DNA of 64,000 bases from Clostridium sp. CAG:524. GTDB taxonomy: Bacteria > Bacillota_I > Bacilli_A > RF39 > UBA660. The stretch lies in the NCBI GenBank assembly GCA_000434555.1, contig FR880111.1:2161-66160 (forward strand), read 5' to 3'. Made by a program: the position numbers and the translations under genes. The first letter of the stretch is position 1; every line of letters begins with the position of its first letter. The notes under the pieces were generated by a model that worked only from the letters and a program-made list of their open reading frames with translations, was not told the origin of the DNA and did no database searches. This document shows, one piece after another, positions 2,547 to 18,200 of the stretch.

Positions 2547-3662
2547 ATGAGGTGCTTAGCAAATGTTTTTTTAAAACAAAAAGCTAAATGCATTCTTAGA
2601 AATGTTGATATACTTGTTTCTAAAGAACTAAAACCTTATCCTAAAGATATAGAATGTTTTGAAATTTGTGTCGATAAGTTTTATGAATATTTTATATTTG
2701 GGAGAAGAGATATTACTAATACTTTAAATGAGTATGAAGATATTTTTAATAAGTATGATGTTGATAATATTGTAATAAAAAGAATGCTTTTACTTATATT
2801 TGAAAATGTTGTTGATTATTTAGATATTATCAATAATCCAGTGGAATTTGAATGGTATTATTTAGTTGCTAAAATGATGCTTTTATGTATTATGTTAGAA
2901 GAACTAACTAATTCGCTTACAGTTCCTAAGGTAGACTATTATACTGCGATTAAATTATTAGAAAAAAAGAATAGTTATTTATTTGATGATGAATCTAAAA
3001 AACTATTTAATGATAATTATTTAAAGATAATTAAGAATATCACTAAAAGTGTTAGTTCTAGTAAGAAATGTTTAAACATGCTATCAAAAAGTCCATTAAA
3101 AGTATATTACGATTACATGGGTAATATAGATGGGTATAATTTATTTATTTCTAAAGTTAATTTTGATAAAAAATACTTTGAAGGAATAGATGAATCTCAT
3201 GCTTTTGATGCTTTTGTTAAATATGGATTTGCTCTTGATTTTAAGTATATTGAAGCAGAACATATATCTTTTGAAGTTATTAAAAATGTTTTTGATAATA
3301 AACCTAATACATTATATTTCGTAAAGCTTCCAAATGATTTCTTTAAGCTTAAAACTAATATTACTAAAATGTATAATATTGTAGAACCTAAAACAATACG
3401 TAATTTTGTATTCTTAGTTCCATATAAGGAATTTATGAATAGAGATGTTAAAGTAAAAGAACTAAAAAATTATGGATTTAAATTAGGTGTATATGATTTT
3501 AATACAGTTGAAAGTAAAAGTCTTAAATTAAAGAACGTAATTGATTATGTTTATTTTAAGCATAATAAGGTATCTAATTATAATAGTATTGTTGAATTTT
3601 CACACAATATAGGAGCAACAATAATAGAAAATGATGGTAATACTTATAAAGTGTACAAATAG
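2547..3662 (+). CDS. Cytoplasmic protein of unknown function; C-terminal half resembles a degenerate EAL (c-di-GMP phosphodiesterase-like) domain
   Basis: RBS AAGGAGG at 2533-2539. No TM segment. C-terminal strings LKNYGFKLGVYDFNTVESKSLKLKNVIDYVYFKHN and SIVEFSHNIGATIIENDG align by eye with the EAL blocks l+..G..ialDDFGtGyssl..l..l..d.iKiD and ivkaii.la..lgi.viAEGVE, but the catalytic residues are replaced. It is 7 nt upstream of the next gene, so it is co-operonic with locus A. Confidence 0.55.
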   Translation: MRCLANVFLKQKAKCILRNVDILVSKELKPYPKDIECFEICVDKFYEYFIFGRRDITNTLNEYEDIFNKYDVDNIVIKRMLLLIFENVVDYLDIINNPVEFEWYYLVAKMMLLCIMLEELTNSLTVPKVDYYTAIKLLEKKNSYLFDDESKKLFNDNYLKIIKNITKSVSSSKKCLNMLSKSPLKVYYDYMGNIDGYNLFISKVNFDKKYFEGIDESHAFDAFVKYGFALDFKYIEAEHISFEVIKNVFDNKPNTLYFVKLPNDFFKLKTNITKMYNIVEPKTIRNFVFLVPYKEFMNRDVKVKELKNYGFKLGVYDFNTVESKSLKLKNVIDYVYFKHNKVSNYNSIVEFSHNIGATIIENDGNTYKVYK

Positions 3663-3669
3663 GTGAATC

Positions 3670-4362
3670 ATGAATAATAATGTAATAAAAGTTAAAGCAG
3701 AAAAAATATATAGAGGAAAACTTTTATCAAGAGTTATTAAGATGGGATTACTTATTTTATTACTATTTTTTTCATTATTATATTTAGTACTATATGTTGT
3801 CAATAGTAATGGATATTTTACTATTAAATTAGACAAGAATTTGAAAGCTGAAAGACATATACTTTTATCTTCTGACTCAGAATTTTCTACTGAAACTGTG
3901 GAAATTAAAGTAAAAGGATTAGAGTATATGGATAATATTACTGAATCATGGATACCAATGGATGAAGTAATAAAAAAAGAGGGCGATAATAGTGGTGATA
4001 ACTATATTGCTTATACATACTTTATAAAAAATGATGGAGAACAAAAAGCCGATTATAAAAGTAAGATTGTTGTCGAATCAGTTATAAAGAATGTAGATGA
4101 TGCTGTTAGGGTTGCGGTATTTACTAATGGCGAAAAAAAAGTTTATGCTAAAAAGGCAAAAAATGGTAAAGAGGAGCCAAATACAATTGCGTTTTTATCA
4201 AATCATTTAATTATGGAACAAGAAAGAAATGGGTTAGAACCTGGACAAATGGACAGGTATACAATTCTTGTTTGGTTAGAAGGAAAAGACCCGGAATGCA
4301 TCGATGACATTATTGGCGGAGAAATGAAAATGTCAATGGTAATCACTGAAAAAAGTGAATAA
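3670..4362 (+). CDS. Membrane-anchored paralog of the locus-A secreted family (TapA-like role possible)
   Basis: N-terminal TM is MGLLILLLFFSLLYLVLYVV followed by NSNGYFT, a variant of the SYAWF motif. The C-terminal motif YTILVWLEGKDPECIDD is shared with the 4377, 8897 and 10065 products. Confidence 0.6.
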   Translation: MNNNVIKVKAEKIYRGKLLSRVIKMGLLILLLFFSLLYLVLYVVNSNGYFTIKLDKNLKAERHILLSSDSEFSTETVEIKVKGLEYMDNITESWIPMDEVIKKEGDNSGDNYIAYTYFIKNDGEQKADYKSKIVVESVIKNVDDAVRVAVFTNGEKKVYAKKAKNGKEEPNTIAFLSNHLIMEQERNGLEPGQMDRYTILVWLEGKDPECIDDIIGGEMKMSMVITEKSE

Positions 4363-4376: not shown

Positions 4377-5480
4377 ATGTATATGGAAAATCAAAATGAT
4401 AATTCTACAAATAATACTTTTCAACAAGCAGAAGTAGTTACTCCTGTTGAAAATAAAGTTGTAGAAGAAACTAAAAAAGAAAAAAAAGAAGAATCTAATG
4501 ATGGTAGAAAAAAGATTCTTACAGCTTTCTTAATGTTAATAGTAACAGCTATTTCATTAACAACAGCATCATATGCATGGTTCACAGAAAATACAACTGT
4601 AACTGTTGATAGTATTGATGTTAATGTTAGTGCAGCAAATGGTATCCAAGTTTCTGTTGATGCTGTTAACTGGAAAGCTAATATTACTACTGCAGAAATA
4701 ACTGGTTCTGCATATCAAGGTAATACTAATCAATTACCTAGTCAAATTGTACCAGTTTCAACAATCGGAGAAGTTGATACAACTACAGGATTTATGAAAA
4801 TGTTTAAAGGAAGTATTGAAGCTGATGCTGGTACTGCTCATGGTTATAAAATAGTTGCTTCACGTTCAACTGAACAAGCAGGCACACTTGGAGACTTTAT
4901 AGCATTTGACTTATTCTTACTTGCTACACAACCAACAACTGTATATTTAACAACAACTTCAGATGTTATTGCTAGTGGAGCTGACACTGGACTAAAAAAT
5001 GCAGCTAGAGTTGCATTCCTATATGAAGGTAGTGCAGCTACTGGTGCTAGTGCTGATGCTATCGCACTTAAAGGTGCTACATCTCATGGAAATGGAAATA
5101 CAAATATATTCTGGGAACCAAATAACAATATACATAAACCAGGAGGAGTTGCTCAAGCGCAAAACTACGGACAAACTAGTTTTACAACTAATACAGTAGT
5201 TCCAAATTATTTAGGTATTAAGGCTGATATTACTGCAGAAACAGCACTTGATTATCAATCTAATAGTGCTACATATTTTGATACTGTTACACCTGATATA
5301 ACAACTCCAGAAGATAATAATGCTAATGGAGAATATAAAACACTATTTAATTTAGCAGCTGGTATTAATAAAGTAAGAATATATGGATGGGTAGAAGGAC
5401 AAGATTACGACTGTGAAAACAACGCATCTGGTACTAATATCAAATTTAATATTCAAATATCTAAGAATGCTAATCCATAA
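4377..5480 (+). CDS. SipW-dependent-type signal peptide protein, TasA/camelysin-like; candidate major fibre subunit
   Basis: Hydrophobic segment ILTAFLMLIVTAISLTTASYAWFTENTTV ends in the SipW-cognate motif. The mature part is rich in Ala/Thr/Gly/Asn. C-terminal motif is VRIYGWVEGQDYDCENN. The gene lies immediately upstream of a SipW-type peptidase. ATG at 4383 has better RBS spacing than 4377. Confidence 0.7.
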   Translation: MYMENQNDNSTNNTFQQAEVVTPVENKVVEETKKEKKEESNDGRKKILTAFLMLIVTAISLTTASYAWFTENTTVTVDSIDVNVSAANGIQVSVDAVNWKANITTAEITGSAYQGNTNQLPSQIVPVSTIGEVDTTTGFMKMFKGSIEADAGTAHGYKIVASRSTEQAGTLGDFIAFDLFLLATQPTTVYLTTTSDVIASGADTGLKNAARVAFLYEGSAATGASADAIALKGATSHGNGNTNIFWEPNNNIHKPGGVAQAQNYGQTSFTTNTVVPNYLGIKADITAETALDYQSNSATYFDTVTPDITTPEDNNANGEYKTLFNLAAGINKVRIYGWVEGQDYDCENNASGTNIKFNIQISKNANP

Positions 5481-5498: not shown

Positions 5499-6053
5499 AT
5501 GAAAGGGAAAAAAATATTTAAGGTTATTTTAGATGTGTTAGTGTGGATAATTATTATCCTTGCTGCTAGTGTTACTTTGATTACACTAACTTCTCGTGAA
5601 AAAGGAGTTTCTCAAGTATTTGGATATGTGCCATTAAATATTCAAACAGGATCAATGGAACCTACAATTATGACTGATGATTTAATCATCACAAAACAAT
5701 ATGATGGTAAGAGTGAACTTAAAGAGGGAGATGTTATCTCATTTAGAGCAACAGAACAAGATACTTATATCATTAAAACACACCGTATTAAGTCTGTTTT
5801 AACTGTTAATGGTATGACTTCATATGTTACTCAAGGTGATAATAATACCGGTGAAGATCCTCAACAAGTAGCTCCTGGTGATATTATTTCTGTATGGAAT
5901 GGAACAAGAATTCCTAAATTAGGAGCTGTTCTTACATTCTTAAAGACTAAAGTTGGATTCTTTGTATGTATAATATTACCACTTGCAGCATTCTTTATAT
6001 ATCAATTATATAAATTTATAATGCTATTACTTGATTATAAAAAAGTTAAATGA
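5499..6053 (+). CDS. Signal peptidase I, SipW/ER-archaeal type (copy 1)
   Basis: N-terminal TM. Catalytic Ser box GSMEPTI, His box IIKTHRI, then TQGDNNTGEDP. C-terminal TM is FFVCIILPLAAFFIY. This layout is typical of SipW/Sec11-type peptidases. Confidence 0.8.
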   Translation: MKGKKIFKVILDVLVWIIIILAASVTLITLTSREKGVSQVFGYVPLNIQTGSMEPTIMTDDLIITKQYDGKSELKEGDVISFRATEQDTYIIKTHRIKSVLTVNGMTSYVTQGDNNTGEDPQQVAPGDIISVWNGTRIPKLGAVLTFLKTKVGFFVCIILPLAAFFIYQLYKFIMLLLDYKKVK

Positions 6054-6068: not shown

Positions 6069-6091
6069 GACTACGAAAGTAGTCTTTTTTA
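6069..6091 (+). terminator. Rho-independent terminator after locus-A module 1
   Basis: The sequence is gactac-gaaa-gtagtc followed by tttttt. Confidence 0.6.
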
Positions 6092-6115
6092 TTGTAGTAA
6101 AATATTGTATTTTTC

Positions 6116-6163
6116 TTGTAATTCTATATTCAAATATGATAAAATTAATATGAATATAGAATT
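6116..6163 (+). promoter_or_regulatory. Putative sigma-A promoter overlapped by a perfect 13-bp inverted repeat (candidate operator) for locus-A module 2
   Basis: The -35 is TTGTAA at 6116-6121. An 18-nt spacer leads to the TGn-extended -10 TGATAAAAT at 6137-6145. Inverted-repeat arms are aattctatattca (6120-6132) and tgaatatagaatt (6151-6163). Confidence 0.4.
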
Positions 6164-6183
6164 AAGAATAGAGGTGAAGAGAA

Positions 6184-7764
6184 TTGTCAACATATATGAG
6201 ATTTTTATATGACTTTATGGAACAATTCTTTTCTGGAGTTATAAATATTTTTATGGGTGTTGTTAGAGGATTTGGAAAGATGTTTAACTTTAAAGCATAC
6301 TTATCAATACTTAAAGAATATTCTTCAGAATTTTCAGTTGGTCAATGGATATTAGTAGGAGTAGCAGTACTTTTAGTATTCGCTTTTTTAGCAGGAATAT
6401 GTTTCTTAATATATCTACTTATAAGAAAATATTTAAGATTTAGAAAAACACTTGTTGAACAAGAAAGTTTGCTTGAAGAAGTAGCTAAACTTGATAGAGA
6501 TGTTATAAGACTTAATCAAGAAAAAGAAGAATTATATGCTTTAAAAGTTTCTCAAATAGGACTTACTCCACAAGTCAGTGGAAGTAATATAAAAATGGAT
6601 ATGCCAAAAGAAATTAAAGAAGAAAATGGTGAAGAAAGTGCTGAAGGTGAAAAAGCTGAAGAAGTTCCAACTGAAGCAGCTAATGGAAGCAGATTCTTTA
6701 AATTAACTCAAATAGATGAGGAGTATGCTAATAAGACACCTGAAAACTTTGGCAATACATTTACACTTGAAGAATTATGTGAAACATTTAGAAATTTTGC
6801 AGCATCAAGAATGAAACTATATTATAAAATTAAAATTATTAGATTATTTGTAGCAGCTCTTGGAGCAACAAGACTTGTAATTTTACAAGGTATCTCTGGT
6901 ACAGGTAAAACATCACTACCATATGCGTGGGGTAAATTCATAAGTAGAGATGCAACTATCGCATCAGTACAACCATCATGGAGAGATAGAACTGAACTTT
7001 TTGGATACTTCAACGAATTTACTAAGAAGTTTAATGAAACAGAAGTTTTAAAAGCAATGTATGAAGCAAGCTATAATGATGAAATGTATTTAACAATACT
7101 AGATGAAATGAATATCGCTCGTGTTGAATACTATTTTGCGGAAATGCTATCAATATTAGAAATGCCTTCTCGTGATGAATGGGTAATTGACTTAGTACCT
7201 AATGTATGGCCAAACGATCCAAAACATTTACCTGATGGAAAACTTAAAATACCAGATAACATGTGGTACATTGGTACAATCAATAACGATGATTCAACAT
7301 TCATGGTTACTGATAAAGTTTACGACCGTGCTATGCCAATAGACATAAATGATAAAGGTCAAGCATTTGATGCTCCTGATACACCTGGTATTAGAATTAA
7401 CAGTAGTTACTTAGAAAGCTTATTTAATAAAGCAAAAGCAGAACATCCAGTATCACAAGATACATTAAATAAACTTGAAGACATGGATAATTATGTTATT
7501 GAACATTTTAGACTTGCCTTTGGTAATCGTATCGTTAAACATATCAAAGAATTCGTTCCAGTTTATGTAGCGTGCGGTGGTACTGAACTTGATGGATTTG
7601 ATTATATTCTTTGTAAAAAAGTCTTAAGAAAATTTGAACAATTAAACTTATCATTCATTCGTGATGAAATAGATGGATATGTTAAATTTTTAGATAAGAC
7701 ATTTGGCAAAGAAAATATGAGTGAATGTAAAGAATATTTAGCAAGACTTAAGAAAGCAATGTAA
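6184..7764 (+). CDS. Membrane-anchored McrB-like AAA+ (AAA_5/GTPase-type) NTPase with coiled-coil linker
   Basis: TTG start 7 nt after GAGGTG. TM WILVGVAVLLVFAFLAGICFLIYLLI is followed by the basic stretch RKYLRFRK, which places the C-terminal part in the cytoplasm. Coiled coil is LVEQESLLEEVAKLDRDVIRLNQEKEEL. Walker A is LQGISGTGKTSL. McrB-type blocks are SVQPSWRDRTELFGYF, LTILDEMNIARVEYYFAEMLSILE and WYIGTINNDDSTFMVTDKVYDRAMPI. Confidence 0.75.
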   Translation: MSTYMRFLYDFMEQFFSGVINIFMGVVRGFGKMFNFKAYLSILKEYSSEFSVGQWILVGVAVLLVFAFLAGICFLIYLLIRKYLRFRKTLVEQESLLEEVAKLDRDVIRLNQEKEELYALKVSQIGLTPQVSGSNIKMDMPKEIKEENGEESAEGEKAEEVPTEAANGSRFFKLTQIDEEYANKTPENFGNTFTLEELCETFRNFAASRMKLYYKIKIIRLFVAALGATRLVILQGISGTGKTSLPYAWGKFISRDATIASVQPSWRDRTELFGYFNEFTKKFNETEVLKAMYEASYNDEMYLTILDEMNIARVEYYFAEMLSILEMPSRDEWVIDLVPNVWPNDPKHLPDGKLKIPDNMWYIGTINNDDSTFMVTDKVYDRAMPIDINDKGQAFDAPDTPGIRINSSYLESLFNKAKAEHPVSQDTLNKLEDMDNYVIEHFRLAFGNRIVKHIKEFVPVYVACGGTELDGFDYILCKKVLRKFEQLNLSFIRDEIDGYVKFLDKTFGKENMSECKEYLARLKKAM

Positions 7765-7779
7765 TAAGAAAGGATTTGT

Positions 7780-8892
7780 ATGAATAAGAATGAATTATTA
7801 AATTTATTAGATGACACTGATAGTAAAGCTATAGAACAATTTTGTGGTTCGAATGATTCACATGTTGTTATTAATTCATCTTTTCAAAGTGTTGAATATG
7901 ATTATTCATGGATAGATAAGATAGAAGAAACACTTGTATATCTAGATAATATCATTAGAAATCCTAAAAGATTTATCATGCAGGAAGAAGAAGTTGTTCC
8001 TGTTGAAAAAGCTAAAAAAATAAGTCAAGAAACAATTAAACATTTAGCTCAACATACAGATTTAATACAAGATGTAGACGAAGATGGTACTATTACACCA
8101 AGTAAAGTACTTAACGTACATAAAGAAGAAAGTTTTGATATTTATGAGAATAGATTTATAATTTCACTCTTAAATAATCTAAATTACTTCTTTACTTTAA
8201 GAAAACAAGTTACAGCAAGTGGCAGTTATGCTAAAAAGAAAAAAGTAATGACTTACACAGGTAAAACTAAACTTGGTAATGAAGAAGTAAATATAAGTTT
8301 AAATATGCAAACAAACTTCTCTGAAGATTTAGGTGGTGTTTCAAGCAGTGGTGAATCAATCGAACAAAGAATTGCTAAAATAGAATTAGTAGTAGGAGAT
8401 TTCTTAAAAACACCATTTGTAAAAGAATTAGCTAACGCAGCACCTGTTAAATCACCAATAAGAAAAACAAACACTATACTTAAGAATCCTAACTTTCAAA
8501 AAGCATTAGAATTATGGGAATTTATTGAACAATATGACGTTAAAGATAAAAAAGAAACAAATGACTCTAAAGAAAGTGTTGATGAAGAAAAAACTAAAAA
8601 TAGAATGGATGGAGCATTCTTTTTAGATTATGTTATTCTAAATGAACTTGATAATAATAAAACATATAAAAAAGATCAAATAAATAGATATGCTCTTAAG
8701 AAATTAATGGAAGACTTTATCGCTAATAATAGAAATCATTCTATGAAAGAATTTAAGAAAATATTACAAGAAGAATTTAAACTCGCATTAGAAAAAGAAG
8801 AAAAAACAGATAAAGAAATTATTAAGAGATTTAAAAATTTATTAAAACATTATAGAAAAAATAAACAAGATGCATTTGCATATTTGAGGTAA
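7780..8892 (+). CDS. Partner of the McrB-like NTPase; weak McrC/DUF2357-like N-terminal motif, no recognisable nuclease domain
   Basis: 15 nt downstream of the NTPase gene. The FDIYENRFIISLLNNL motif resembles the D.xENRf block of McrC/DUF2357-type partners. The C-terminal third is Lys/Glu-rich and probably helical. I see no convincing PD-(D/E)xK motif and no TM. Confidence 0.45.
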   Translation: MNKNELLNLLDDTDSKAIEQFCGSNDSHVVINSSFQSVEYDYSWIDKIEETLVYLDNIIRNPKRFIMQEEEVVPVEKAKKISQETIKHLAQHTDLIQDVDEDGTITPSKVLNVHKEESFDIYENRFIISLLNNLNYFFTLRKQVTASGSYAKKKKVMTYTGKTKLGNEEVNISLNMQTNFSEDLGGVSSSGESIEQRIAKIELVVGDFLKTPFVKELANAAPVKSPIRKTNTILKNPNFQKALELWEFIEQYDVKDKKETNDSKESVDEEKTKNRMDGAFFLDYVILNELDNNKTYKKDQINRYALKKLMEDFIANNRNHSMKEFKKILQEEFKLALEKEEKTDKEIIKRFKNLLKHYRKNKQDAFAYLR

Positions 8893-8896: not shown

Positions 8897-10054
8897 ATGA
8901 ATAAGGATATGAATAAGAAAATTAGTAGTACAATTATTAAAATGATAGCTATAATTGTTTCTATCTTTGTTTTTTCTTATGCATGGTTTGTTCATAATGA
9001 AAATACTCACATTAATGCAATTGAGATTGGAACTGCTAAAACTAACAATATTCAAGTTAGTGAGGATGGTGGTAATAATTGGGGTACTTCTCTTAGTATA
9101 GATGTTGGAGAAGGGTTCAGATTTGATAATGAAGTTACAAGTGATGGTATTAATTTTTATAAAGCTAATCTTAAAAATGATGATGGCTATCCTCTTCATT
9201 TTATAAATGCTACTGTTAATAAAGATTATTTAGATTTTGATTTATGGTTTAAAAATGATACAAGTGTTAAATTATTTTTAGACGATAATTCAAGAGTTTA
9301 TCCAGAATGTGGTACTGATGAATCAGATTTGATATGGGATGAAGTTACTGGTAGTTTAGATTCTATAACAAGAGTTAGTGCCTATGGTAACTTTAGTAGA
9401 GATTTAATCGCAGGAGCAGTTAGAGTTGCATTTATAAAATATAATTATGATGAAGAAAATGATGAATATATTTTAGACAATACACCTAGTCTTGTATGGG
9501 CACCTAATCCTAATTATGAAATTATATCAAATGGAGAAGATTTACTTACAGCATCAATTACATCAACTAATAAACAAAGTTATAAATATTTAAAAGTAAA
9601 TAGTGGAAGTAATTTTGTAGAAAGTGATATTCCTAATTTAATAGATACTATTCATGCTAAATATAGTAGTAAAATGGCTAATGGAGATACGCCACTTGTT
9701 ACTATTGAAACTACAGATGGAGTAGAAAAAAAAGCTGGATTAAAAATAAGAGTATGGGTAGAAGGAAATGATAGAGATGCTAATAGTGCTTTAAAAGGTG
9801 GCATATTTAAATTTGATTTATCATTCATAGGATTACAAAAGAAAGATAACACTAATATTCCAAATGTAAGTAAAAATGGTAATTCAATAAGTGGTATCAA
9901 TAATACCATGGAATATTCAATAGATAATGGAAATAAATGGATAAGATATAATGGCAGTGATGATTTATCATTTAAAAGTGGTACTCATGTATTAGTTAGA
10001 TATAGTGAAACTAGTGATTACTTTGTATCTAATTATGTGGAACTAGATTTTTAA
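8897..10054 (+). CDS. SipW-dependent-type signal peptide protein, locus-A paralog
   Basis: Signal segment is IIKMIAIIVSIFVFSYAWFVHNENTH. Motif LKIRVWVEGNDRDANSALKGG is present. An extra C-terminal module (ISGINNTMEYSIDNGNKWIRY...VLVRYSE) is shared with the 10065 product. Only 4 nt separate it from the previous gene. Confidence 0.7.
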   Translation: MNKDMNKKISSTIIKMIAIIVSIFVFSYAWFVHNENTHINAIEIGTAKTNNIQVSEDGGNNWGTSLSIDVGEGFRFDNEVTSDGINFYKANLKNDDGYPLHFINATVNKDYLDFDLWFKNDTSVKLFLDDNSRVYPECGTDESDLIWDEVTGSLDSITRVSAYGNFSRDLIAGAVRVAFIKYNYDEENDEYILDNTPSLVWAPNPNYEIISNGEDLLTASITSTNKQSYKYLKVNSGSNFVESDIPNLIDTIHAKYSSKMANGDTPLVTIETTDGVEKKAGLKIRVWVEGNDRDANSALKGGIFKFDLSFIGLQKKDNTNIPNVSKNGNSISGINNTMEYSIDNGNKWIRYNGSDDLSFKSGTHVLVRYSETSDYFVSNYVELDF

Positions 10055-10064: not shown

Positions 10065-11114
10065 ATGAGTAATAAGTCATTTTTTAAAATTATATTGTTA
10101 ATTGGATTTACAGTTATTCTTATAATAAGTTCTTATGCATGGTTTCAAGATAGATCTAATCCATCTATAAGCTTATCTAATATTCAAGTTTCAGCAGCAG
10201 AAGGTCTTGTTATTAAATTACAACCGGATAGTGCAGCAAGAAATACTGTTAGTTTAAATAGTGTTCTTGAAAATTTTAATGAATTTGAACTTAAACAAGT
10301 GTCAAGTGTTGATGCAGTTAATTTCTATACGATAGACTTTAACGAAGGTTTAACTTTAACTGACCCAGAATTTATAAAACTTCCTGAAGTAAATGGTAGT
10401 GTATCTCAAATGATTGAAAATGGTTATATTGATTTTACTTTCTATTTACAAACTGAAGATTATCCAAAACATGTATATGTACATAGAGATACATCTGTTA
10501 CAGGTCCTGCTTATGATGCCCTTAGAATAGCACTTACTTATCCAACCACAGATAATACAACATCAACAATTATATTTGGAAAAACACCTGAAAATGGTAT
10601 TACAGATGAATATACTACAAATGCAATTATAACAGCAGGTAAGTTTAAATTTGGTAATATACCTAGTAGTTTCTATACAACACAACTTGTTCGTAATTTT
10701 AGTTATAAAGATGGTGGAAGAAGTAATAGCGATAGTGATACGATTGATACTAATAAAGTATTATTTACAATACCAGCTAATAGTAGAATGGCTATAAATT
10801 TGAAAATATGGTTAGAAGGCGGAGATATAGATTGCACCAATGCACTTGCATCAACATTTCTAAATGTATTATTTAAATTTGGTAGTGCTAATGAATTACT
10901 AGCAGCTCCAACATTAACAGGAAATTCTAACTATACAATAACTGGCCTTGATACTACAATGGAATGGGCCACAACAAATACAACAACAACAGTATGGACA
11001 CCTGTAACAAATAGTAATATGCAATTTACCGGTTATCAATCAGTATATGTTAGAATTAAAGAAGTAGTAGGTGTTTCACCAGAAAGTTATGCTACTCTTG
11101 TAACATTCCAGTGA
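10065..11114 (+). CDS. SipW-dependent-type signal peptide protein, locus-A paralog
   Basis: Signal segment is IILLIGFTVILIISSYAWFQDRSNPS. Motif INLKIWLEGGDIDCTNALAS is present. The C-terminal module is ITGLDTTMEWATTN...VYVRIKE. Confidence 0.7.
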   Translation: MSNKSFFKIILLIGFTVILIISSYAWFQDRSNPSISLSNIQVSAAEGLVIKLQPDSAARNTVSLNSVLENFNEFELKQVSSVDAVNFYTIDFNEGLTLTDPEFIKLPEVNGSVSQMIENGYIDFTFYLQTEDYPKHVYVHRDTSVTGPAYDALRIALTYPTTDNTTSTIIFGKTPENGITDEYTTNAIITAGKFKFGNIPSSFYTTQLVRNFSYKDGGRSNSDSDTIDTNKVLFTIPANSRMAINLKIWLEGGDIDCTNALASTFLNVLFKFGSANELLAAPTLTGNSNYTITGLDTTMEWATTNTTTTVWTPVTNSNMQFTGYQSVYVRIKEVVGVSPESYATLVTFQ

Positions 11115-11122: not shown

Positions 11123-11698
11123 ATGAAAAAGATATCAATATTATTAAGTATATTAGTTATAATCTTACTTACAGTAAGCGCATATGCATGGATGCAAACA
11201 GAACCATCACTAGGAGAAAATATAGAATATAATAGAGATTTCTATGTAACTGATAGTGATATACAAGTTAAACTATATGCACTTATTGATAATAAATATG
11301 TTTTACAAGGACAATATTCAGACGATGAATTATTAAATTTAGACTTAATGTATCCAGGTAAAACACAAAGATATAGATTTGAACTTACTAATATTAATCC
11401 AACACCAGCAAGAGTAAAGATAGTATTTACAGAAATAACTGGAAATATAAATTTACTTAAAAATTATTTAAAGATAGGTATTACTAATCCAATAATTGAT
11501 AACTTTAAATTATCAGACAGATTAGAACATAATGAAGAGGATGATAGATACTTCTTTGATTTTGCAAATAGTGTTACTATCCCAGCAGAATCAACACTTA
11601 ATTATTATTGGAATCTAGAAATAGACATAGATGCTCCAAATTCATTACAAAATACAAATTTAAAGATTAACAAAATTATGTTTATAAAACCATCATAA
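11123..11698 (+). CDS. Small SipW-dependent-type signal peptide protein (TasA/camelysin-like beta-sandwich size)
   Basis: Signal segment is ISILLSILVIILLTVSAYAWMQTEPS. The protein is 191 aa. YPGKTQRYRFELTNINPTPARVKIVF resembles the PG..-containing strand of TasA-family proteins. Confidence 0.6.
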   Translation: MKKISILLSILVIILLTVSAYAWMQTEPSLGENIEYNRDFYVTDSDIQVKLYALIDNKYVLQGQYSDDELLNLDLMYPGKTQRYRFELTNINPTPARVKIVFTEITGNINLLKNYLKIGITNPIIDNFKLSDRLEHNEEDDRYFFDFANSVTIPAESTLNYYWNLEIDIDAPNSLQNTNLKINKIMFIKPS

Positions 11699-11714: not shown

Positions 11715-12260
11715 ATGAAAAAAGTAATAAAGAAAATATTAAACATACTCAAAATAATTATATTAATATTACTAATACTATTTGCACTATTCACAGTATA
11801 TCAAAAAGTATTTCCTAATAATCCTAGTGCTTTTGGATTTAGAACTTATTCTATTATTACTAAAAGTATGGAACCAGTTCTAAAAAAAGGAGATGTAATA
11901 CTCGTTCAAGAAAGAAATACAAGTTCATATAAAGTAGGAGATATAATTACATTTAAGGGAACGAGCGGAGACTTAAAAGGAAAGATAGTTACACATGAAA
12001 TAGTTGGAATTAAACTAGAAAATGGAAAAAATATATTCTATACTAAAGGTATACAAAATATAAGTGAAGACCCAGCTGTTTATGAAGATGAAATATTAGG
12101 AAAATATATATATAAATTTAAATTCTTTAGTTTAATAGAAAGAATAATGGATACTAAAATAGGATTTATATTAATTATAATAATTCCACTAGGATATATT
12201 TATTTTTATGAAATTAGAGATATAATTAAAGATATAAAAAATATTAAGAATAAGGAGTAA
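11715..12260 (+). CDS. Signal peptidase I, SipW/ER-archaeal type (copy 2, diverged)
   Basis: N-terminal TM. Ser box is KSMEPVL and His box is IVTHEIV. The GDN box is replaced by TKGIQNISEDP. C-terminal TM is IGFILIIIIPLGYIYF. Confidence 0.75.
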   Translation: MKKVIKKILNILKIIILILLILFALFTVYQKVFPNNPSAFGFRTYSIITKSMEPVLKKGDVILVQERNTSSYKVGDIITFKGTSGDLKGKIVTHEIVGIKLENGKNIFYTKGIQNISEDPAVYEDEILGKYIYKFKFFSLIERIMDTKIGFILIIIIPLGYIYFYEIRDIIKDIKNIKNKE

Positions 12261-12267: not shown

Positions 12268-15200
12268 ATGAAAGATAGCATTAATAAAATTTATAATGCG
12301 ATTATCAATTATATAATTGATTTCTTTCATGTGTTTAAAAAAAGATTTAATAAATTTAAAAGAAAAACTAAACGTAAACTTAGAAAACTATATTATTATG
12401 AAATACTTGGTGTTATAGCTGTATCAGTTTACTTCTATAGATTCTTATGTAAGATATATAAAAAGCCTATATTTAAAAAGTTTAGAAATAAAAGTAAACT
12501 TTTATATAAGAAATCTCTTGTTAAACTTGAAAAAGCTAAATATGATTATGAAACATATTTACTTGAGATAAGATATGATACTAAAGATAAAATGGATAAT
12601 GTAAAGAATAAATATTCTAAATATTGTACTAAAAGAATTCTTGCGAAAAGTTTTGTATTAATAGCTTTATCTGTATTTTTGATATATGATACATATTCAT
12701 GGTTCTATAATGAATATGTAAGTAAGGGTACTAAGATTAGTTTGGGTACAGTAGAACATATAGTTAATCAATATGATAAGAATGGTAATTTAATTGGAAT
12801 AGAAGGAGATATTGTTACTGTTGTTGAAGAAGATAACTTAGCAAATACTTTTAAGAATACAAGATATGTTGAAATAAAAAATACTGGTTCTCTTAACTTA
12901 GATTATAATTTAACATTTACATTAGATGGTACTATGTCTAATGCTGGTGTACTTTATTATAGAGTAATTGATATTACTGAAGATGTAATTAATACTACTA
13001 TTACAAGTGGTTCTAATACTAAACTTGAAGCTTATGCTAAAAATAATCCAACACCTAATAATCTTGAAACAGATGCAGTTAATCCAGTTTCAAATATGAC
13101 AACAATACCACAAGTATTAATAAAAGGTGAAATTGATAAAGATGAAGATAACCTTGAAAATAATTATAGATATTTTAGAATAGATTATGGTATGTATCAA
13201 AGTGTTAATTCTGCACTTTATTCTGGTGCTTCAGTTGCTGTTCATGCAAAGGTGTATTGTACTCAAAGAGGAATAGACGCAAGCCTTATAAATGAAGGAC
13301 AAATATGGTTAGTTGAAAATGAAGAACAATTTAGAGATGCAGTACTTAATGCTTTAAGTGGAGATACAATTAAACTAGCAGATGACATTACTATAAATGG
13401 AAGTGTAGATTTACAAAGAAGAGTTGGTATAGATGTAGATACATATAATTTACATGTTACTGGAGATCTTGTTTATGATTTTGTAGAACTTGGTAAACTA
13501 AAGATTGATACATCTAAAGGCGGTAAAATAGATGTAGATAGTAGACTATATGTAAATGCTCCTAAATCACAAATACATTTTACAGGTCTTAATAAAGACT
13601 ATGATATTTTTGTAGGAGGAGAATTTACTGTAAATGGTATACAAAATGAAGAAGAAGATGGAGTCCTTTTAGAAGCAGTAAGAATTGTTAAAAATAAGAT
13701 AGGTAATATTCCAGCAGATATAATAGTACTATCAAATACAAGACTTACTATTGCACCTAATGTAGAACTTAATTATGTAATTGGTGCTCCTGGAAGTACA
13801 AACATAGAAATATTAAACAATGGTACAATTACTCAAATACAATTACAAGATATGAATCTTATTGATTCATTCTCAAAATATCAAATATATATTTACAACT
13901 TAAATACAATACTTGGAGTACTTGGAGGTTCATCAATAATCTTACCATCAAACTCAACTCCATATACAGGACCTAATACAGGTAATACATTAATTATAAG
14001 AGGAGTTAGTTCAAATGATATAACTGTTTCAGGTAGTGATCACTATACTGGAGATGATATCAATCAAGGAGCTCCAGAAGATTCAGTCGTACCAATACAA
14101 GGAGAAGTAGATTCATATTATGTTTATATAAGAGATAATAAAGAAACTTTAGAAGGACTTTTAAAAGCATATTTTGATGAAATAGATGCGGCTACTACAA
14201 CTGATAAAATAACCGCTATTAAAAAGTTAGTAATTTATACATTAAATCAAGCATATTTTGAAAATGATGACTTCAATTATATAGCAAGTGATGCAATGCC
14301 TAATATAGAATATTTAGGACTTCAAAATGCAACAATAAGTGATAATAAAACAATTAATAAAATAGCTAGTAATACATTAAAAGATAAAACATCAATAAAA
14401 ACATTAATATTATCAAAAACACTTACTACTATTGGTGATAATGCATTTGCAAATGTTAACTTAGGTAGAATAAGTACTAATAGAACATTTAGATTTTTAT
14501 CAATACCAAGTTCAGTTACAAGTATAGGTTCAGGAGCCTTCAAAAATGCAAAATATGTTAACTTTGAAGGACAAATACCTCCATCAGTTGCAAGTGGAGC
14601 ATTTAACAATGTATCTAATGGTACAAAATTCTTTGTTCCAGAAGGAGCAATAACAGCATATAGAGATGCTAATAACATTAATGAAGCATATATATATTAT
14701 GCAGCAACACTATCAGACAATAAAAGATATTTCTTATATGATTATAAAGATGGATATGGAATATCATACTTTATAAATAGTGTATCTGTTGGATCTAATT
14801 TAACAATACCAAATACAATAACTATGAATTCTATTACTAAAGACATAACCGCTCTTGGATATAATTCATATAGAAATTTAATTACACCAGCAACAGGTAC
14901 TAGTGTAGTTATTCCAAATACAGTTAAATTAATAGATAGTTATGCATTCTATGAAGATAATATAATAGATATAAATTTATCTAATGTTGAAATAATTAAT
15001 TCCTATGCATTCTACAAAACAAAACTTACTAAACTAGAATCTAATACAATAACTACTATTGGAGACTATACTTTCTATGAAAATCCTATTACATATATAT
15101 CACTTGGTAAAATAGAAAAAATAGGTAAATATGCATTTACTAATAATACAACATTATATGAAATGGATTTAGGTCCAGTTAAGAGTATAGGTGATTATGC

Positions 15201-18200
15201 ATTTTATAATTGTCCTCAACTCGGTAGAGTATGGTTTAGAAATATGACTACTGTTGTTGTTAACAATGGTAAAAGTATAGACCTAACAGTTGGTGAAAAT
15301 GCTGTATTTACTAATTGGGGAATGTATCTTGATGGAAGACTTAGGGTATATGTTCCAGATGGTAATGATAGTGAAGGATTTAATTATCTTGAAGGATATA
15401 AAAAATTATTCCAAGGAAGTAGTGCATTTATTTATCCAATGGGAACTATTATTGGTAACTATAAACATGTAGCTATACCTTATGATTGGGGAGAATATAG
15501 TGTTAAAACTGTTACTAAGAAAAATGGTGCTGGAAATGATGTTACAGCTTATGAAATAATAGAATATCATGGAGCTGATTTAACAAGTAGTTATCAACTT
15601 CCAGATATAATAACTGTAGGTGATGGACTTAGTGCTTCAATAAGTGGTAATTCATGGCAACAAGGTACTGGATATAGATATGGTGGAACACTTACTATAA
15701 CAAATAATATGGATACAGCTGTTACAGATTGGACAGTTAGATTAGCACTCCCAGATGGCGTTACATGGGGAAGTACATACACAAATGCAGTAGAAAATAT
15801 AGATGGAAATATAGTAACATTATCTAATGCAACGTATAATGGAACAATAAATCCAAATAGTAGTATAAATATATCGTTCTATTATGATACAATTAGTCAA
15901 AGCCTAAGTGCATCAATACTTAGTACTTATTCCTCTAGTACACCAATCATGAATATAATATCAATAGGAAAATATGCTTATAGACATACAATTTCAAAAG
16001 AAAATCAAACAATAGATTTAGTCGCAAATAACTTACTTAACATTGATGCCCATGGTTTAGAAAACATTAGTGTTAAATCGCTTACATCAAGTAGTTTAGT
16101 ATCCATAGGTGATTATGGACTTTATAATACAGCACTTCAAATAGTAACACTTCCTAATCTAAATTCACTAGGTAATTATGCTATGTCAGGAATGGATACA
16201 CTATATAGCGTTAACTTAGGTAATATAAGAGTTATGGGAGAGAATGCTATTAGTAATAATCCTAACTTAGAACAAGTATTCATAGGTACAACTGATACAG
16301 ATAATATGTCAGTTCATAGTACTGCAATGAGTAATATAGGTGCTAACACTAATAATAGACTTAGAATATATGTACCTGATACAAAATTAGATTTCTATAA
16401 AACATTATTTAGTACATATTCTGATTATATTTATCCAACTGGTACAATAGTAGGAAGTTTCGTTAATACACCAATTCCATTTGACATAGGAGAATATAGT
16501 GTACGTGAAATTACTGTTAAAGATAGAAATAATAATGATGTAACAGGTTATGAAATAATAGAATATCATGGACCGGATATATCAAATACATTCATGATAC
16601 CAGAAACAGTTACAATAAATGGAGAACAAAAAGATATTATATCTATAGGTTCTTATGCATTTAAACATACAAAAGTAAATGGTACTGGTAGTGATATTAT
16701 TAACAATAAATTGTTAGTTATTAATGATCATGCATTCGAAAATATTAAAGCCATAAATTCATTTACTTCAAATAGCTTACTTGATTTAAAAAGCTATGCA
16801 TTTAATAATGGAAGCCTTATATCTGTAAATACACCTAATTTAAGAAGTATTGGATCATATGCTCTTGCTAATATGAATGGTTTATATAAAATAAATCTTG
16901 GTAAAGTATATAATATGGAAGCAAATTCAGTATATAACTTACCAAACTTAGTTCAAATATTCTTTACACCTCCAGAAGAAACTAAAGTATTTGATCAGTA
17001 TGCATTTACTGATGTAGGAACTCTTACAAGTAATAGAATAAGATTTTATGTTGCTGAATCAGTAATAAGTAGTGAAACACAAATTCCAACTACAACAGCT
17101 ATCAATGTTACAGATACATGTAATAGAACATTAACAAACAGAAGATATACTTATACATGTACAGTTACTGTTAGAAATAATACAGGACATGAATTATCTA
17201 ACTGGACAACATCAATACATCTAGGTAATGTTTCTTTCCAATCTGCAACAGATGTTTCATATGAAAATTCATCATCAAGTGTTAAATTTACCAATACAAG
17301 CGCAAATGGTAATTTAGCAAACGGAGAAAGTACAACATTTACATTTGTAGTTAGATCTAATAATAACTATTCAGCTTGGACTTACTTAAACAACCATTTA
17401 TTTGATTCAACTGGTACATACTATACAACTAATACAACAACTAAAAATGATTATTTAACTGATATATATGCTAATTCATTTAGGACAGAATATAAAGATT
17501 ATTTCTATGATTATGGAACAATACTTGGTGATTATAGTAGTTCATCAATGCCATATAATATAGGTGAATATAGCGTTATATTAAGAGACCACACTACTAA
17601 ATCTGGCGAAACAGTTACAGGATGGGAAATAGTTGAATATCATGGTGCTAACTTAAATTCAAGGTATATAATACCAACATCGCTTACAGTAGATGACAAA
17701 ACTTATGATGTTATTGGAATAGGTGATAGAGCATATAGATGGGCTACAATGGATTCAGGAGGACAATTTGATATTGTTACTACATCTATTAGATATGTTT
17801 ATGAATATGCATTTTATAATTTAAATGGTGTTCATGAAATTAATTTACCTAACACTGACTTTATTGGAAATTATGCATTCTTTAATAATAAATTATATAA
17901 AGCAACAACAACTAGTTTAATTGAACTTGGTGCCTATGCTTACGCTAACAACACAAGTCTTAATTATGTAAATGCGGGACCAGTTACAAGTATAGGTGAA
18001 GGTGCATTCTATGGATGTATAGGCATGGAGCAAATGTTCTTCACATCAACTGAAGCTGATAGTGGCGCAAGTGGAATGAAAATAGGAGTAGGAGTTAACT
18101 CATTCTATAATGTAGGTACTACTCTTGGAAAAAGATTTAGAATTTATGTTCCAGATGGAACAATAGGTACTTCTGATGTTACATATCAAGAAGCATATAA

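What the first reader, a model, noticed from the sequence alone, without database searches (positions are those of the whole stretch)
6184..8892. Membrane-tethered McrB-like AAA+ NTPase and a partner lacking a visible nuclease motif, embedded in a secretion/fibre operon
The 526-aa product carries all McrB/AAA_5 hallmark blocks: GISGTGKT, VQPSWRDRTELFGYF, ILDEMNIARVEYYFAEMLSILE and YIGTINNDDS...DRAMPI. In place of a DNA-binding N-domain it has a TM helix (positive-inside places the ATPase in the cytoplasm), a coiled coil and an acidic linker.

The downstream 370-aa protein has only a McrC/DUF2357-like DIYENRF motif. I find no convincing PD-(D/E)xK nuclease signature. Its stop is 4 nt from the start of the next SipW-substrate gene, so the pair is translationally embedded in module 2 rather than being an inserted defence cassette with its own signals.

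I see two readings. (i) An McrBC-derived motor has been repurposed for assembly or extraction of the fibre or the 2442-aa adhesin at the membrane. (ii) It is a novel membrane-associated McrBC-like defence module hitch-hiking in the operon. Either would be new.
Basis: partly seen in the sequence, partly recalled or inferred. Interest (0 to 1): 0.85.

Follow-up and report, generated by a model that had tools for sequence, protein, structure and literature searches.

The report
Membrane-anchored McrBC-like pair in fibre locus
A restriction-enzyme-type GTPase motor that has swapped its DNA-binding domain for a membrane anchor, and a partner that has lost its nuclease, sit in a conserved gene cluster with signal peptidases and secreted fibre-like proteins. 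This class was named CoCoPALM in a 2024 census, and nobody has yet shown what it does.

Summary
Window 6184-7764 encodes a 526-aa protein with one transmembrane helix, a helical stalk, an acidic linker and a McrB-type AAA+ domain. Window 7780-8892 encodes a 370-aa McrC N-domain (DUF2357) protein with no nuclease by Pfam, conservation, AF2 or Foldseek.

The pair is not an inserted defence cassette:
- In all 80 related species genomes examined the two genes are adjacent.
- 79 of 80 have a SipW-type peptidase within 10 kb, and in 67 of 77 it directly follows the partner.
- The NTPase is the slowest-evolving gene in the locus, slower than PcrA or the ABC-transporter genes compared.
- No full-length copy appears in the phage, plasmid or viral-contig collections.

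It is not new as a class. Bell et al. (eLife 2024) named "CoCoPALM" systems: NxD-branch McrB GTPases fused to an FtsB-like transmembrane/coiled-coil module, with a McrC homolog, linked to signal peptidases. This locus meets those features, with FtsB homology and the partner's coiled coil left inconclusive.

The most likely function is a GTP-driven membrane complex working with SipW in surface-fibre biogenesis. That is inferred, not shown. Distant relatives partly lack SipW, so a more general membrane role remains open.

The parts
2547..3662 (+). Conserved cytoplasmic protein of unknown function (371 aa), first gene of the + strand cluster
   Evidence: No Pfam hit. It is homologous over its full length (hhalign probability 96.5%, E 7.9e-10) to the ~330-aa gene that abuts the NTPase start in at least 51 of 80 related loci.
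3670..4362 (+). Signal-anchored 230-aa protein, always paired with the 367-aa protein. Possible membrane-anchored base of the fibre (inferred).
   Evidence: Its N-terminal hydrophobic anchor lacks the YAWF motif. Homologs lie next to the 367-aa family in 45 loci.
4377..5480 (+). 367-aa secreted protein with a signal anchor ending ...SYAWF. Candidate major fibre subunit (inferred).
   Evidence: Motif read directly. 55 homologs were found in the 80 loci. No Pfam hit and no PDB sequence hit, so a TasA-like fold is not shown.
5499..6053 (+). SipW-type (archaeal-type) signal peptidase I, copy 1
   Evidence: NCBIfam TIGR02228 at 87.9 bits, above its cutoff of 51.85. Bacillus SipW model E 5e-29, below its equivalog cutoff. 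Pfam Peptidase_S26.
6069..6090 (+). Terminator-like hairpin (6-bp stem, GAAA loop) followed by a T-run, between SipW#1 and the NTPase gene
   Evidence: Found. MFE of the 6054-6110 stretch is -11 kcal/mol, z = -2.9 against shuffles. Function not shown.
6184..6345 (+). NTPase residues 1-54: conserved amphipathic N-terminal segment, predicted outside or at the membrane surface
   Evidence: AF2 helices at 2-24, 26-33 and 36-47. Invariant F16, G29, Y39, Y46 and W55 in homologs. Topology inferred from the charge bias.
6346..6423 (+). NTPase residues 55-80: transmembrane helix
   Evidence: KD19 maximum 3.03; 5 K/R after the helix against 1 before it.
6424..6555 (+). NTPase residues 81-124: cytoplasmic helical stalk continuing the transmembrane helix (short coiled coil, FtsB/FtsL-like arrangement)
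   Evidence: AF2 gives a single helix over 52-124. Heptad a/d positions 96, 100, 103, 107, 110, 114, 117 and 121 read L, V, L, V, L, K, L, V (read). Weak sub-threshold hits to TIGR04561 and FtsL.
6556..6696 (+). NTPase residues 125-171: disordered acidic linker
   Evidence: pLDDT 25-45. Net charge -6 over residues 128-170. Length and sequence vary among homologs.
6697..7764 (+). NTPase residues 172-526: McrB-type AAA+ domain of the NxD branch, with Walker A 236-243, Walker B 306-310 and NxD 367-369, plus a C-terminal helical domain
   Evidence: Only McrB is found in the PDB. PADLOC PDC-M26A E 1.1e-37, core only. Foldseek best hits are RavA and McrB 6hz4_D. G236, G239, G241, K242, D307, N310, N367, D369 and R382 are invariant in 131 representatives.
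7780..8544 (+). Partner residues 1-255: McrC N-terminal (DUF2357) domain, with the conserved core at about residues 22-255 including YENRF (122-126)
   Evidence: Pfam DUF2357 E 1.5e-12. 34 invariant positions, all within residues 21-246. The core is shared with all long variants. YENRF is present in all 8 distant partners.
8545..8892 (+). Partner residues 256-370: variable helical K/E-rich tail in place of the McrC nuclease
   Evidence: No invariant residue after W246. AF2 shows one strand plus helices, including helix 322-369. No PDB fold match at E<=1e-3. Relatives carry 100-560-aa K/E-rich coiled-coil tails here.
8897..10054 (+). 385-aa secreted protein with a signal anchor ending ...SYAWF
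   Evidence: Homologs occur in the window-type loci.
10065..11114 (+). 349-aa secreted protein with a signal anchor ending ...SYAWF
11123..11698 (+). 191-aa secreted protein with a signal anchor ending ...AYAWM
11715..12260 (+). SipW-type signal peptidase I, copy 2. This is the ortholog of the peptidase that directly follows the partner in most genomes.
   Evidence: TIGR02228 at 100 bits, above its cutoff of 51.85. In 67 of 77 loci the gene right after the partner is a SipW homolog, and in the listed part it best matches this copy.
12268..19596 (+). 2442-aa surface protein with BspA-type LRR domains and a CBM2 domain. It has a long basic N-terminus followed by a hydrophobic anchor ending ...TYSWF.
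   Evidence: Pfam LRR_5 (6 matched stretches), E 8.4e-91; CBM_2 E 1.9e-8. Motif read. Present only in the window-type loci.

Best explanation

Shown:
- The 526-aa protein is an NxD-branch McrB-type AAA+ NTPase, presumably a GTPase.
- Its N-terminal DNA-reading domain is replaced by a short conserved outside segment, one transmembrane helix and a helical stalk.
- The 370-aa protein keeps the McrC N-domain, which in McrBC plugs into the McrB hexamer and switches on GTP hydrolysis. Its nuclease is replaced by a variable helical tail.
- The two genes form a conserved unit with a SipW-type signal peptidase and with secreted proteins whose signal anchors end in a TasA-like (S/A/T)-Y-(A/S)-W-(F/M) motif.

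Inferred:
- Six NTPase subunits form a ring hanging under the membrane on six transmembrane/stalk helices.
- One partner molecule sits in the ring and triggers GTP hydrolysis.
- The resulting conformational cycle is passed through the stalks and transmembrane helices, and perhaps through the partner's tail, to the membrane site where SipW cleaves the fibre precursors.
- The complex therefore acts as an energy-coupled assembly platform or gate for processing, polymerisation or anchoring of the surface fibre and its LRR adhesin.
- No DNA is cut.
For: Domain identity:
- McrB is the only PDB relative.
- Walker A, Walker B, N367 and D369 are invariant across 131 representatives at the 50% clustering level. 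The signature reads GT(A/I)NxD(D/E)STF, the NxD form described for this branch (PMC11090510 section 7).
- The transmembrane helix, stalk and linker are supported.
- The partner hits DUF2357 above the Pfam threshold.

No nuclease:
- No nuclease family in Pfam.
- No conserved residue after W246.
- The AF2 model has only one strand after residue 255.
- No PDB fold hit.
- Long variants carry only K/E-rich coiled-coil tails.

Linkage to SipW:
- 80 of 80 loci have the partner adjacent, with gaps of 0-64 nt.
- 79 of 80 have a SipW homolog within 10 kb.
- In 67 of 77 it starts between -146 and +45 nt of the partner's stop, often as a 4-nt overlap.
- In relatives at 35-40% identity, 3 of 8 again have SipW touching the NTPase gene, plus 2-6 paralogous signal-anchored proteins.

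Core-gene behaviour:
- The NTPase is the most conserved protein in every locus comparison: 89% against 71-76% for the ABC-transporter genes, and 59% against 55% for PcrA.
- At least 586 matching stretches were found in the species-representative genome collection.
- No full-length relative is found in 50,697 phage records or 72,556 plasmid records. Only one distant relative (28% identity) is found in 2.9 million viral contigs.
- No defence-system context was found in the ten neighbouring window proteins scanned with PADLOC. Only the PcrA-type helicase gives strong hits (generic UvrD/GajB and RTasHel models), and one small ORF gives a weak Cas3 match.

Prior description of the class: PMC11090510.
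Against: - No experiment exists for any member of the class. Ring formation, activation by the partner and coupling to SipW are extrapolated from E. coli and Thermococcus McrBC structures (Niu et al. 2020 and Nirwan et al. 2019, as cited in PMC11090510).
- Characterised TasA/SipW fibres need no cytoplasmic NTPase (established knowledge), so the need for a motor is unexplained.
- The secreted neighbours are not demonstrably TasA-like: no Pfam hit, no PDB profile hit and no TIGR04088 hit.
- In 5 of 8 distant transmembrane-bearing relatives there is no SipW within 8 kb. Three are bare pairs and two have a GNAT acetyltransferase fused to the partner. The ancestral role of the membrane-tethered pair may therefore be more general.
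- AF2 confidence is low for partner residues 61-120, the presumed ring-inserting part.
Confidence: 0.55

Rival explanations
1. General membrane or envelope module. The membrane-tethered GTPase and its activator serve a broader membrane process, such as envelope remodelling, secretion of other substrates, or an FtsB/FtsL-like scaffolding role. On this view the SipW/fibre linkage is a clade-specific recruitment rather than the core function.
For: - Of 8 loci from distant transmembrane-bearing relatives, 5 have no SipW within 8 kb.
- Three of those are bare pairs among housekeeping genes (L084, L089, L090).
- Two sit next to gatCAB, with ligA (and pcrA in L083) upstream, and have an acetyltransferase fused to the partner (L083, L088).
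- 77 of 131 family representatives carry a transmembrane segment with very varied N-terminal lengths.
- The NTPase is as conserved as housekeeping genes.
Against: - Within the subfamily to which the window belongs the SipW link is nearly absolute, 79 of 80, with overlapping reading frames.
- The link reappears independently, in a different gene order, in distant relatives L085-L087.
- Only 8 distant loci were sampled.
Confidence: 0.22
2. Conflict or defence system. This would be a CoCoNuT-like McrBC derivative that guards the pilus or fibre, a common phage receptor. It would respond to infection through the membrane or the peptidase rather than through a nuclease.
For: - It descends from type IV restriction systems and is sister to the predicted-defence CoCoNuT clade (PMC11090510).
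- The AAA+ core hits the PADLOC candidate PDC-M26A at E 1.1e-37.
- One close relative (L081/P0187) has the partner's N-half fused to a RmuC-family domain.
Against: - No effector nuclease is present in the partner or detected in the scanned part of the neighbourhood.
- The partner has no PADLOC hit.
- Conservation exceeds that of PcrA, and the gene order is stable across at least 80 species. This is unlike the patchy, fast-evolving pattern usual for defence genes (established knowledge).
- The family is absent from the phage, plasmid and viral collections.
- The RmuC fusion sits on a 2.5x-coverage contig that diverges from the window at 8384. It may be a deletion or an assembly chimera.
Confidence: 0.12
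3. Decaying remnant of an McrBC system that lost its DNA-binding and nuclease domains and now has no function.
For: Both canonical output domains are missing.
Against: - Every catalytic residue is invariant across 131 representatives.
- The AAA+ core is nearly invariant among homologs at 64-90% identity.
- Intact ORFs with tight gene spacing are found in 80 of 80 genomes.
Confidence: 0.02

Closest known systems
[quoted passage not shown]
   Same: - NxD-type McrB GTPase.
- N-terminal transmembrane helix plus coiled-coil module.
- Adjacent McrC (DUF2357) homolog without a nuclease and with a helical tail.
- Signal-peptidase genes in the same operon.
   Different: Nothing contradicts membership. 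The published description is one paragraph with no mechanism, and the promised follow-up was not found.

Details added here:
- The conserved unit is NTPase-partner-SipW.
- A fourth conserved cytoplasmic gene belongs to the locus.
- The secreted neighbours share a signal motif.
- The NTPase evolves unusually slowly.
- Some distant transmembrane-bearing relatives lack SipW.
Canonical McrBC type IV restriction enzyme (E. coli K-12)
   Same: - AAA+ core with Walker A, Walker B and an asparagine/aspartate signature.
- A separately encoded partner with the DUF2357 activating domain directly downstream.
   Different: - No DNA-binding N-domain; a transmembrane helix and stalk take its place.
- No PD-(D/E)xK nuclease.
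- NxD rather than NxxD signature.
- No restriction-modification or defence neighbourhood.
- The score is far below the NCBIfam McrB equivalog cutoff (23 bits against 637).
CoCoNuT systems / PADLOC candidate PDC-M26
   Same: The GTPase core and C-terminal domain are about 30-35% identical over the whole alignment and about 40% over the matched core. They share the same NxD(D/E) signature and coiled-coil accessories.
   Different: - CoCoNuT GTPases are 650-870 aa with long soluble coiled coils and no transmembrane segment.
- According to the paper they are always accompanied by HEPN or other nucleases; none is present here.
- The partner has no PADLOC hit.
sipW-tasA-type fibre operons (B. subtilis tapA-sipW-tasA; C. 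perfringens sipW-bsaA-bsaB-bsaC, PMC11580942)
   Same: - Archaeal-type signal peptidase I genes next to several paralogous secreted proteins.
- The window's signal anchors end in Y-A-W-F, resembling TasA's W-A|A-F site with Phe at P2' (PMC10269814 for the P2' Phe; the TasA sequence is from memory).
   Different: - Those operons contain no cytoplasmic NTPase.
- The secreted proteins here match no TasA/camelysin model or PDB entry by sequence.
Type IV pilus, Tad and archaellum assembly ATPases (PilB/TadA/FlaI)
   Same: The idea of a cytoplasmic hexameric NTPase at the membrane coupled to a dedicated prepilin peptidase and signal-anchored subunits.
   Different: - Unrelated ATPase fold family, and a different peptidase class (aspartic prepilin peptidase against S26 serine peptidase).
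- The analogy is functional only and is untested.
- A separate VirB11/TadA-like ATPase gene lies elsewhere in the window (43588-44928).

Membership tests
McrB-type AAA+ GTPase, NxD branch | Walker A (GxxGxGK[ST]) and Walker B (DExx) of an AAA+ core related to McrB | tested here: met
   GISGTGKTS at 236-244 and LDEMN at 306-310. G236, G239, G241, K242 and D307 are invariant and E308 is at least 90% conserved in 131 representatives. McrB is the only PDB sequence relative. Foldseek hits RavA and McrB.
McrB-type AAA+ GTPase, NxD branch | Signature N-x-D, usually followed by D or E, instead of NxxD | tested here: met
   The window has N367-N-D369-D370. Across 131 representatives N367 and D369 are invariant, while position 370 varies (D, E, Q, G or A). 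A gapless pairwise alignment to E. coli McrB would also allow an NxxD reading. The family alignment decides in favour of NxD.
McrB-type AAA+ GTPase, NxD branch | GTP binding and hydrolysis, and hexamer formation | not testable with these tools
   Needs biochemistry or a multimer prediction.
Canonical McrBC restriction system | N-terminal DNA-binding (modified-base reader) domain on McrB | tested here: not met
   Residues 1-171 are an amphipathic segment, a transmembrane helix, a stalk and an acidic linker. No Pfam domain is found.
Canonical McrBC restriction system | PD-(D/E)xK nuclease at the C-terminus of McrC | tested here: not met
   No nuclease family in Pfam. No invariant residue after W246. 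AF2 shows one strand plus helices after residue 255. No Foldseek PDB hit at E<=1e-3.
McrC N-terminal domain (DUF2357, PF09823) | Match to the Pfam model above its gathering score | tested here: met
   47.7 bits against a cutoff of 23.3, E 1.5e-12, residues 55-147. Nearly all of the 120 listed homologs carry PF09823.
CoCoPALM (PMC11090510) | GTPase fused to an FtsB-like transmembrane plus coiled-coil module | tested here: inconclusive
   The transmembrane helix and a continuous helix over 52-124 are met. Homology to FtsB itself is not shown: only sub-threshold hits to FtsL (E 0.0095, 15.8 bits against 42.45) and TIGR04561.
CoCoPALM (PMC11090510) | McrC homolog adjacent, usually with a coiled coil | tested here: inconclusive
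   The adjacency part is met: 15 nt separate the genes in the window, and the partner is adjacent in 80 of 80 loci. For the coiled coil, the window protein has a terminal helix over 322-369 and relatives have long K/E-rich tails. Coiled-coil propensity was not formally scored; a simple heptad heuristic gave nothing.
CoCoPALM (PMC11090510) | Association with signal-peptidase-family genes | tested here: met
   Two SipW-type genes lie in the window locus. 79 of 80 related loci have one within 10 kb, and in 67 of 77 it directly follows the partner.
PADLOC candidate system PDC-M26 | Both components match the system's models | tested here: not met
   The NTPase matches PDC-M26A in the AAA+ core only (best stretch profile positions 312-432 of 724, E 1.1e-37). 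The partner has no hit at E<=1.
Archaeal-type signal peptidase I (SipW type) | Match to TIGR02228 above its cutoff | tested here: met
   87.9 and 100 bits against a cutoff of 51.85. Both copies are below the Bacillus SipW equivalog cutoff of 190. SMEP (Ser) and TH(R/E)I (His) motifs are visible in both copies.
TasA/camelysin-type fibre subunits | Sequence or fold match to TasA-family models, and a SipW-cognate signal peptide | tested here: inconclusive
   No Pfam hit. A family profile of 36 sequences finds no PDB entry. The N-terminal peptides hit no SipW-cognate signal model in NCBIfam. Only the motif resemblance remains.

The most novel reading that the evidence does not exclude
The McrBC-derived GTPase ring and its nuclease-less activator are the engine of a previously unrecognised kind of pilus machine in Gram-positive gut bacteria. 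On this reading, GTP hydrolysis under the membrane drives the stepwise assembly, or the retraction or release, of SipW-processed donor-strand fibres carrying a giant LRR adhesin. That would be an NTP-powered pilus system unrelated to type IV pili, sortase pili and chaperone-usher pili.
Probability: 0.3. Interest if true: 0.85.

Novelty: new member of a known kind. Interest (0 to 1): 0.55.

Why it matters
If the inferred role is right, a restriction-enzyme motor has been turned into part of a cell-surface fibre machine.
- It would be the first case of a cytoplasmic NTPase coupled to a SipW/TasA-type system. The characterised systems of that type assemble without cytoplasmic energy input.
- The module is present in at least several hundred species of small-genome gut and rumen Bacillota, which are almost all uncultured. 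There it sits next to large adhesins, so it may bear on how these organisms attach in the gut.
- It also tests what a McrB ring does when there is no DNA and no nuclease.
- The class is named in the literature but remains unstudied, so the locus is a good entry point rather than a discovery.

Tried and rejected
- **Partner against the PDB by sequence and by family profile.** Only chance EF-Tu matches.
- **Foldseek of the partner model against the PDB.** Nothing at E<=1e-3, neither McrC nor any nuclease. The elongated model with a low-confidence 61-120 segment limits this test.
- **TasA-likeness of the 367-aa family.** The profile finds no PDB hit. N-terminal peptides against NCBIfam, looking for the SipW-cognate signal model, gave no relevant hit.
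- **EAL-like reading of the conserved cytoplasmic gene.** I suspected this by eye. Neither Pfam on 32 members nor a PDB profile search supports it, so I dropped it.
- **My own heptad heuristic for coiled coils.** It returned nothing at its threshold. The stalk claim therefore rests on the AF2 helix and manual reading of the heptad positions.
- **Literature.** No paper mentions PDC-M26. No follow-up on CoCoPALM was found, and the eLife supplements held as text do not mention it. The single 'McrB' mention in the C. perfringens bsa preprint (PMC11580942) was not among the passages shown and was not followed up; the paper was used only for TasA/SipW background.
- **Defence-island idea.** PADLOC on ten neighbouring proteins finds only generic UvrD/GajB hits on what NCBIfam identifies as PcrA, plus a weak Cas3 hit on a small ORF.
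- **RmuC fusion (P0187/L081).** I considered it as evidence for a nuclease-bearing variant. I set it aside because the contig has 2.5x coverage and simply diverges from the window at position 8384.

Full report

Yes. The six-frame ORF list gives 6184-7764 (+, 526 aa, TTG start) and 7780-8892 (+, 370 aa), followed 4 nt later by 8897-10054. The TTG start has a GAGGTG box 7 nt upstream. It also matches the N-terminus of homologs, M-x-x-x-x-RFL.

Pfam finds nothing in the NTPase. Other searches do place it:
- phmmer against the PDB finds only E. coli McrB (E 2.4e-5, residues 230-416).
- A 25-sequence family profile again finds only McrB.
- NCBIfam gives McrB at E 2.9e-5, far below the equivalog cutoff.
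- PADLOC gives the candidate PDC-M26A at E 1.1e-37, in the AAA+ core only.

The transmembrane segment is clear. Hydropathy peaks at 3.03 over residues 62-80, with five K/R just after the helix and one before it. AlphaFold2 with the family alignment shows short helices over residues 2-47, one continuous helix over 52-124 (transmembrane part plus stalk), a disordered acidic stretch over 125-171, and then an AAA+ fold. The best PDB fold matches for that model are RavA and McrB.

The partner hits DUF2357, the McrC N-terminal domain, above the Pfam threshold (E 1.5e-12).

**2. Does the partner hide a nuclease?**

I found no sign of one.
- Pfam reports no PD-(D/E)xK or other nuclease family.
- In a 40-sequence alignment all 34 invariant positions lie between residues 21 and 246, and the rest is variable.
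- The AF2 model (mean pLDDT 77) has only one strand and four helices after residue 255, ending in a 48-residue helix.
- Foldseek against the PDB gives no hit at E<=1e-3.
- Relatives with longer partners (451-821 aa) share the same core and add only K/E-rich coiled-coil tails.

The most conserved stretch of the partner, residues 56-126 including YENRF, is modelled with low confidence as a monomer. That fits a segment which folds only when bound. In McrBC this domain inserts into the McrB ring and stimulates GTP hydrolysis (Niu et al. 2020 and Nirwan et al. 2019, as summarised in PMC11090510).

**3. Genomic context elsewhere**

The best 80 loci (57-89% identity) come from gut and rumen metagenome-assembled genomes labelled Bacilli, Mycoplasmatota/Tenericutes, Erysipelotrichaceae or Clostridia.

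I called ORFs in those loci and searched them with the window's proteins and then counted:
- The partner follows the NTPase in 80 of 80 loci, with gaps of 0-64 nt.
- A SipW homolog lies within 10 kb in 79 of 80. The exception is a 3.8-kb contig that ends right after the partner.
- In 67 of the 77 loci with enough downstream sequence, SipW starts between -146 and +45 nt of the partner's stop, often with a 4-nt overlap.
- The other ten, including the window type, have secreted-protein genes inserted before that SipW.

So the conserved unit is NTPase-partner-SipW. The 230-aa and 367-aa proteins of the window recur as a pair in 45 and 52 loci respectively.

A further conserved member is a cytoplasmic protein of about 330-370 aa with no known domain. 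In the window it is 2547-3662. In at least 51 other loci it abuts the NTPase start. The two groups are homologous by profile-profile comparison (probability 96.5%).

**4. The neighbours**

Both peptidases match the archaeal-type signal peptidase I model above its cutoff.

Five proteins in the window carry a hydrophobic anchor ending in (S/A/T)-Y-(A/S)-W-(F/M). They are 4377-5480, 8897-10054, 10065-11114, 11123-11698 and the 2442-aa BspA-LRR/CBM2 protein. The motif resembles the TasA cleavage site, which has an aromatic residue at P2' (PMC10269814).

I could not show that these proteins are TasA-like: there was no Pfam hit, no PDB profile hit and no signal-peptide model hit. 'Fibre' is therefore an inference from the SipW link and the paralogous secreted proteins.

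**5. Defence module or cellular machine?**

Several results point away from defence.
- The NTPase is the most conserved protein in every locus-to-locus comparison: 89% identity against 71-76% for the flanking ABC-transporter genes, 59% against 55% for PcrA, and 64% against 50-65% for the ABC-transporter genes in L016.
- Its AAA+ core is nearly invariant among homologs that are 64-90% identical overall.
- No full-length relative is found in the phage or plasmid collections, only AAA+ cores at 41% identity or less. Only one distant relative turns up in 2.9 million viral contigs.
- The flanks are ordinary: an ABC transporter upstream and PcrA downstream. PADLOC adds only generic helicase hits on PcrA and one weak Cas3 hit.

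**6. What is already known**

Bell et al. (eLife 2024, PMC11090510, section 7) made a census of McrBC systems. [quoted passage not shown]
- the NxD-motif GTPase is fused to an FtsB-like transmembrane and coiled-coil domain;
[quoted passage not shown] They named these systems CoCoPALM and deferred the analysis to a later paper. I found no such paper.

The window's pair fits. In 131 family representatives the signature is GT(A/I)NxD(D/E)STF, with N367 and D369 invariant and position 370 variable, which is the NxD form. 77 of the 131 carry a transmembrane segment before the AAA+ domain. The rest are 650-870-aa soluble proteins of the CoCoNuT type.

Homology of the stalk to FtsB itself was not confirmed here; only sub-threshold FtsL and TIGR04561 hits were found.

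**7. How far does the SipW link reach?**

I searched with a profile of distant transmembrane-bearing representatives and looked at eight long contigs. I then added in-house profiles built from the 80 loci.
- All eight have a partner with the YENRF motif directly downstream.
- Three (L085-L087) have a SipW homolog immediately upstream of the NTPase. The precomputed Pfam annotation had missed it. They also have two to six paralogous small proteins whose anchors end in G-F-(A/S)-x-W-(V/I), an ABC transporter and Flg_new-repeat proteins.
- Two (L083, L088) have a 1047-1190-aa partner with a fused GNAT acetyltransferase, next to gatCAB, with ligA (and pcrA in L083) upstream.
- Three are bare pairs among housekeeping genes.

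The link to SipW-dependent secreted proteins is therefore recurrent but not universal. That keeps open a more general membrane role for the pair.

**8. Most likely mechanism**

Shown:
- domain composition and topology;
- loss of the DNA-binding and nuclease domains;
- intact catalytic residues;
- a conserved operon with SipW and signal-anchored proteins.

Inferred by analogy with McrBC:
- The NTPase forms a hexamer tethered under the membrane by six transmembrane/stalk helices.
- One partner inserts into the ring and activates GTP hydrolysis.
- The conformational cycle is transmitted to the membrane site where SipW processes the precursors.
- The complex works as an energy-coupled platform or gate for fibre and adhesin biogenesis.

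Why a SipW system would need such a motor is unexplained, since characterised TasA-type fibres polymerise without one. I put the fibre-linked GTPase-machine reading at about 0.55, a more general membrane role at about 0.22, a conflict system at about 0.12, and a dead remnant at about 0.02.

**9. Verdict**

The claim of novelty does not hold at the level of the class, because this is a well-formed member of the already named but unstudied CoCoPALM group. It remains worth attention, since no function has been demonstrated for any member and the module is widespread in uncultured gut Bacillota.

Noticed in passing
window 2547-3662; L031:9004-9990 and at least 50 other loci: A cytoplasmic protein of about 330-370 aa with no recognisable domain is a further conserved member of the locus. 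In the window it is the first gene of the cluster. In most relatives it abuts the NTPase start. The two groups are homologous (hhalign probability 96.5%). An EAL-like look in the C-terminal third was not supported by Pfam or by a PDB profile search.
   Followed up: partly
L081:5338-6708 (protein P0187; also P0189): In a close relative the partner's N-terminal half (79% identical) is fused to a RmuC-family domain, and the whole second module is missing. L081 is collinear with window 2482-8384 and then diverges. The contig has only about 2.5x coverage, so this is either a real deletion variant or an assembly chimera.
   Followed up: partly
L085, L086, L087 (distant relatives): A second locus type: SipW sits directly upstream of the transmembrane McrB-like gene. 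It comes with 2-6 tandem paralogs of small signal-anchored proteins (anchor ending GF[AS]xW[VI]), an ABC transporter (ABC_tran plus 12TM_1), an 800-aa protein and a Flg_new-repeat protein.
   Followed up: partly
L083:10611-14183, L088:10418-13561: In another branch the McrC-like partner is 1047-1190 aa and carries a GNAT acetyltransferase domain. In both loci the pair sits directly after gatCAB and an epimerase gene, with ligA further upstream (and pcrA in L083).
   Followed up: no
window 12268-19596: The 2442-aa BspA-LRR/CBM2 protein has an unusual N-terminus. About 130 mostly basic residues precede the hydrophobic anchor and the TYSWF motif. The protein would therefore start with a sizeable cytoplasmic segment if it is inserted like the other precursors.
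   Followed up: no
window 30653-32260, 33683-38083, 43588-44928: The window holds further surface-structure genes. These are a 535-aa protein with a sortase domain, a 1466-aa protein with no Pfam hit, and a VirB11/TadA/FlaI-type secretion ATPase (E 4e-31) that suggests a separate Tad or type IV pilus-like locus.
   Followed up: no
window 26091-28349: A 752-aa protein with four DUF285 ('Mycoplasma protein') repeats plus DUF6273. Together with about 25% G+C, a YfhO protein (39264-41801) and an LTA-synthase-like sulfatase-domain protein (49100-51145), this points to a small-genome but cell-walled Bacillota lineage.
   Followed up: no
window 6054-6110: A hairpin with a GAAA loop and a T-run follows SipW#1 and folds better than shuffled sequence (z = -2.9). 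It may attenuate read-through from the first module into the NTPase gene. The SipW#1-to-NTPase spacer is much shorter in some relatives (about 40-56 nt in L008 and L004) and similar in others (about 115 nt in L001, L002 and L005).
   Followed up: partly
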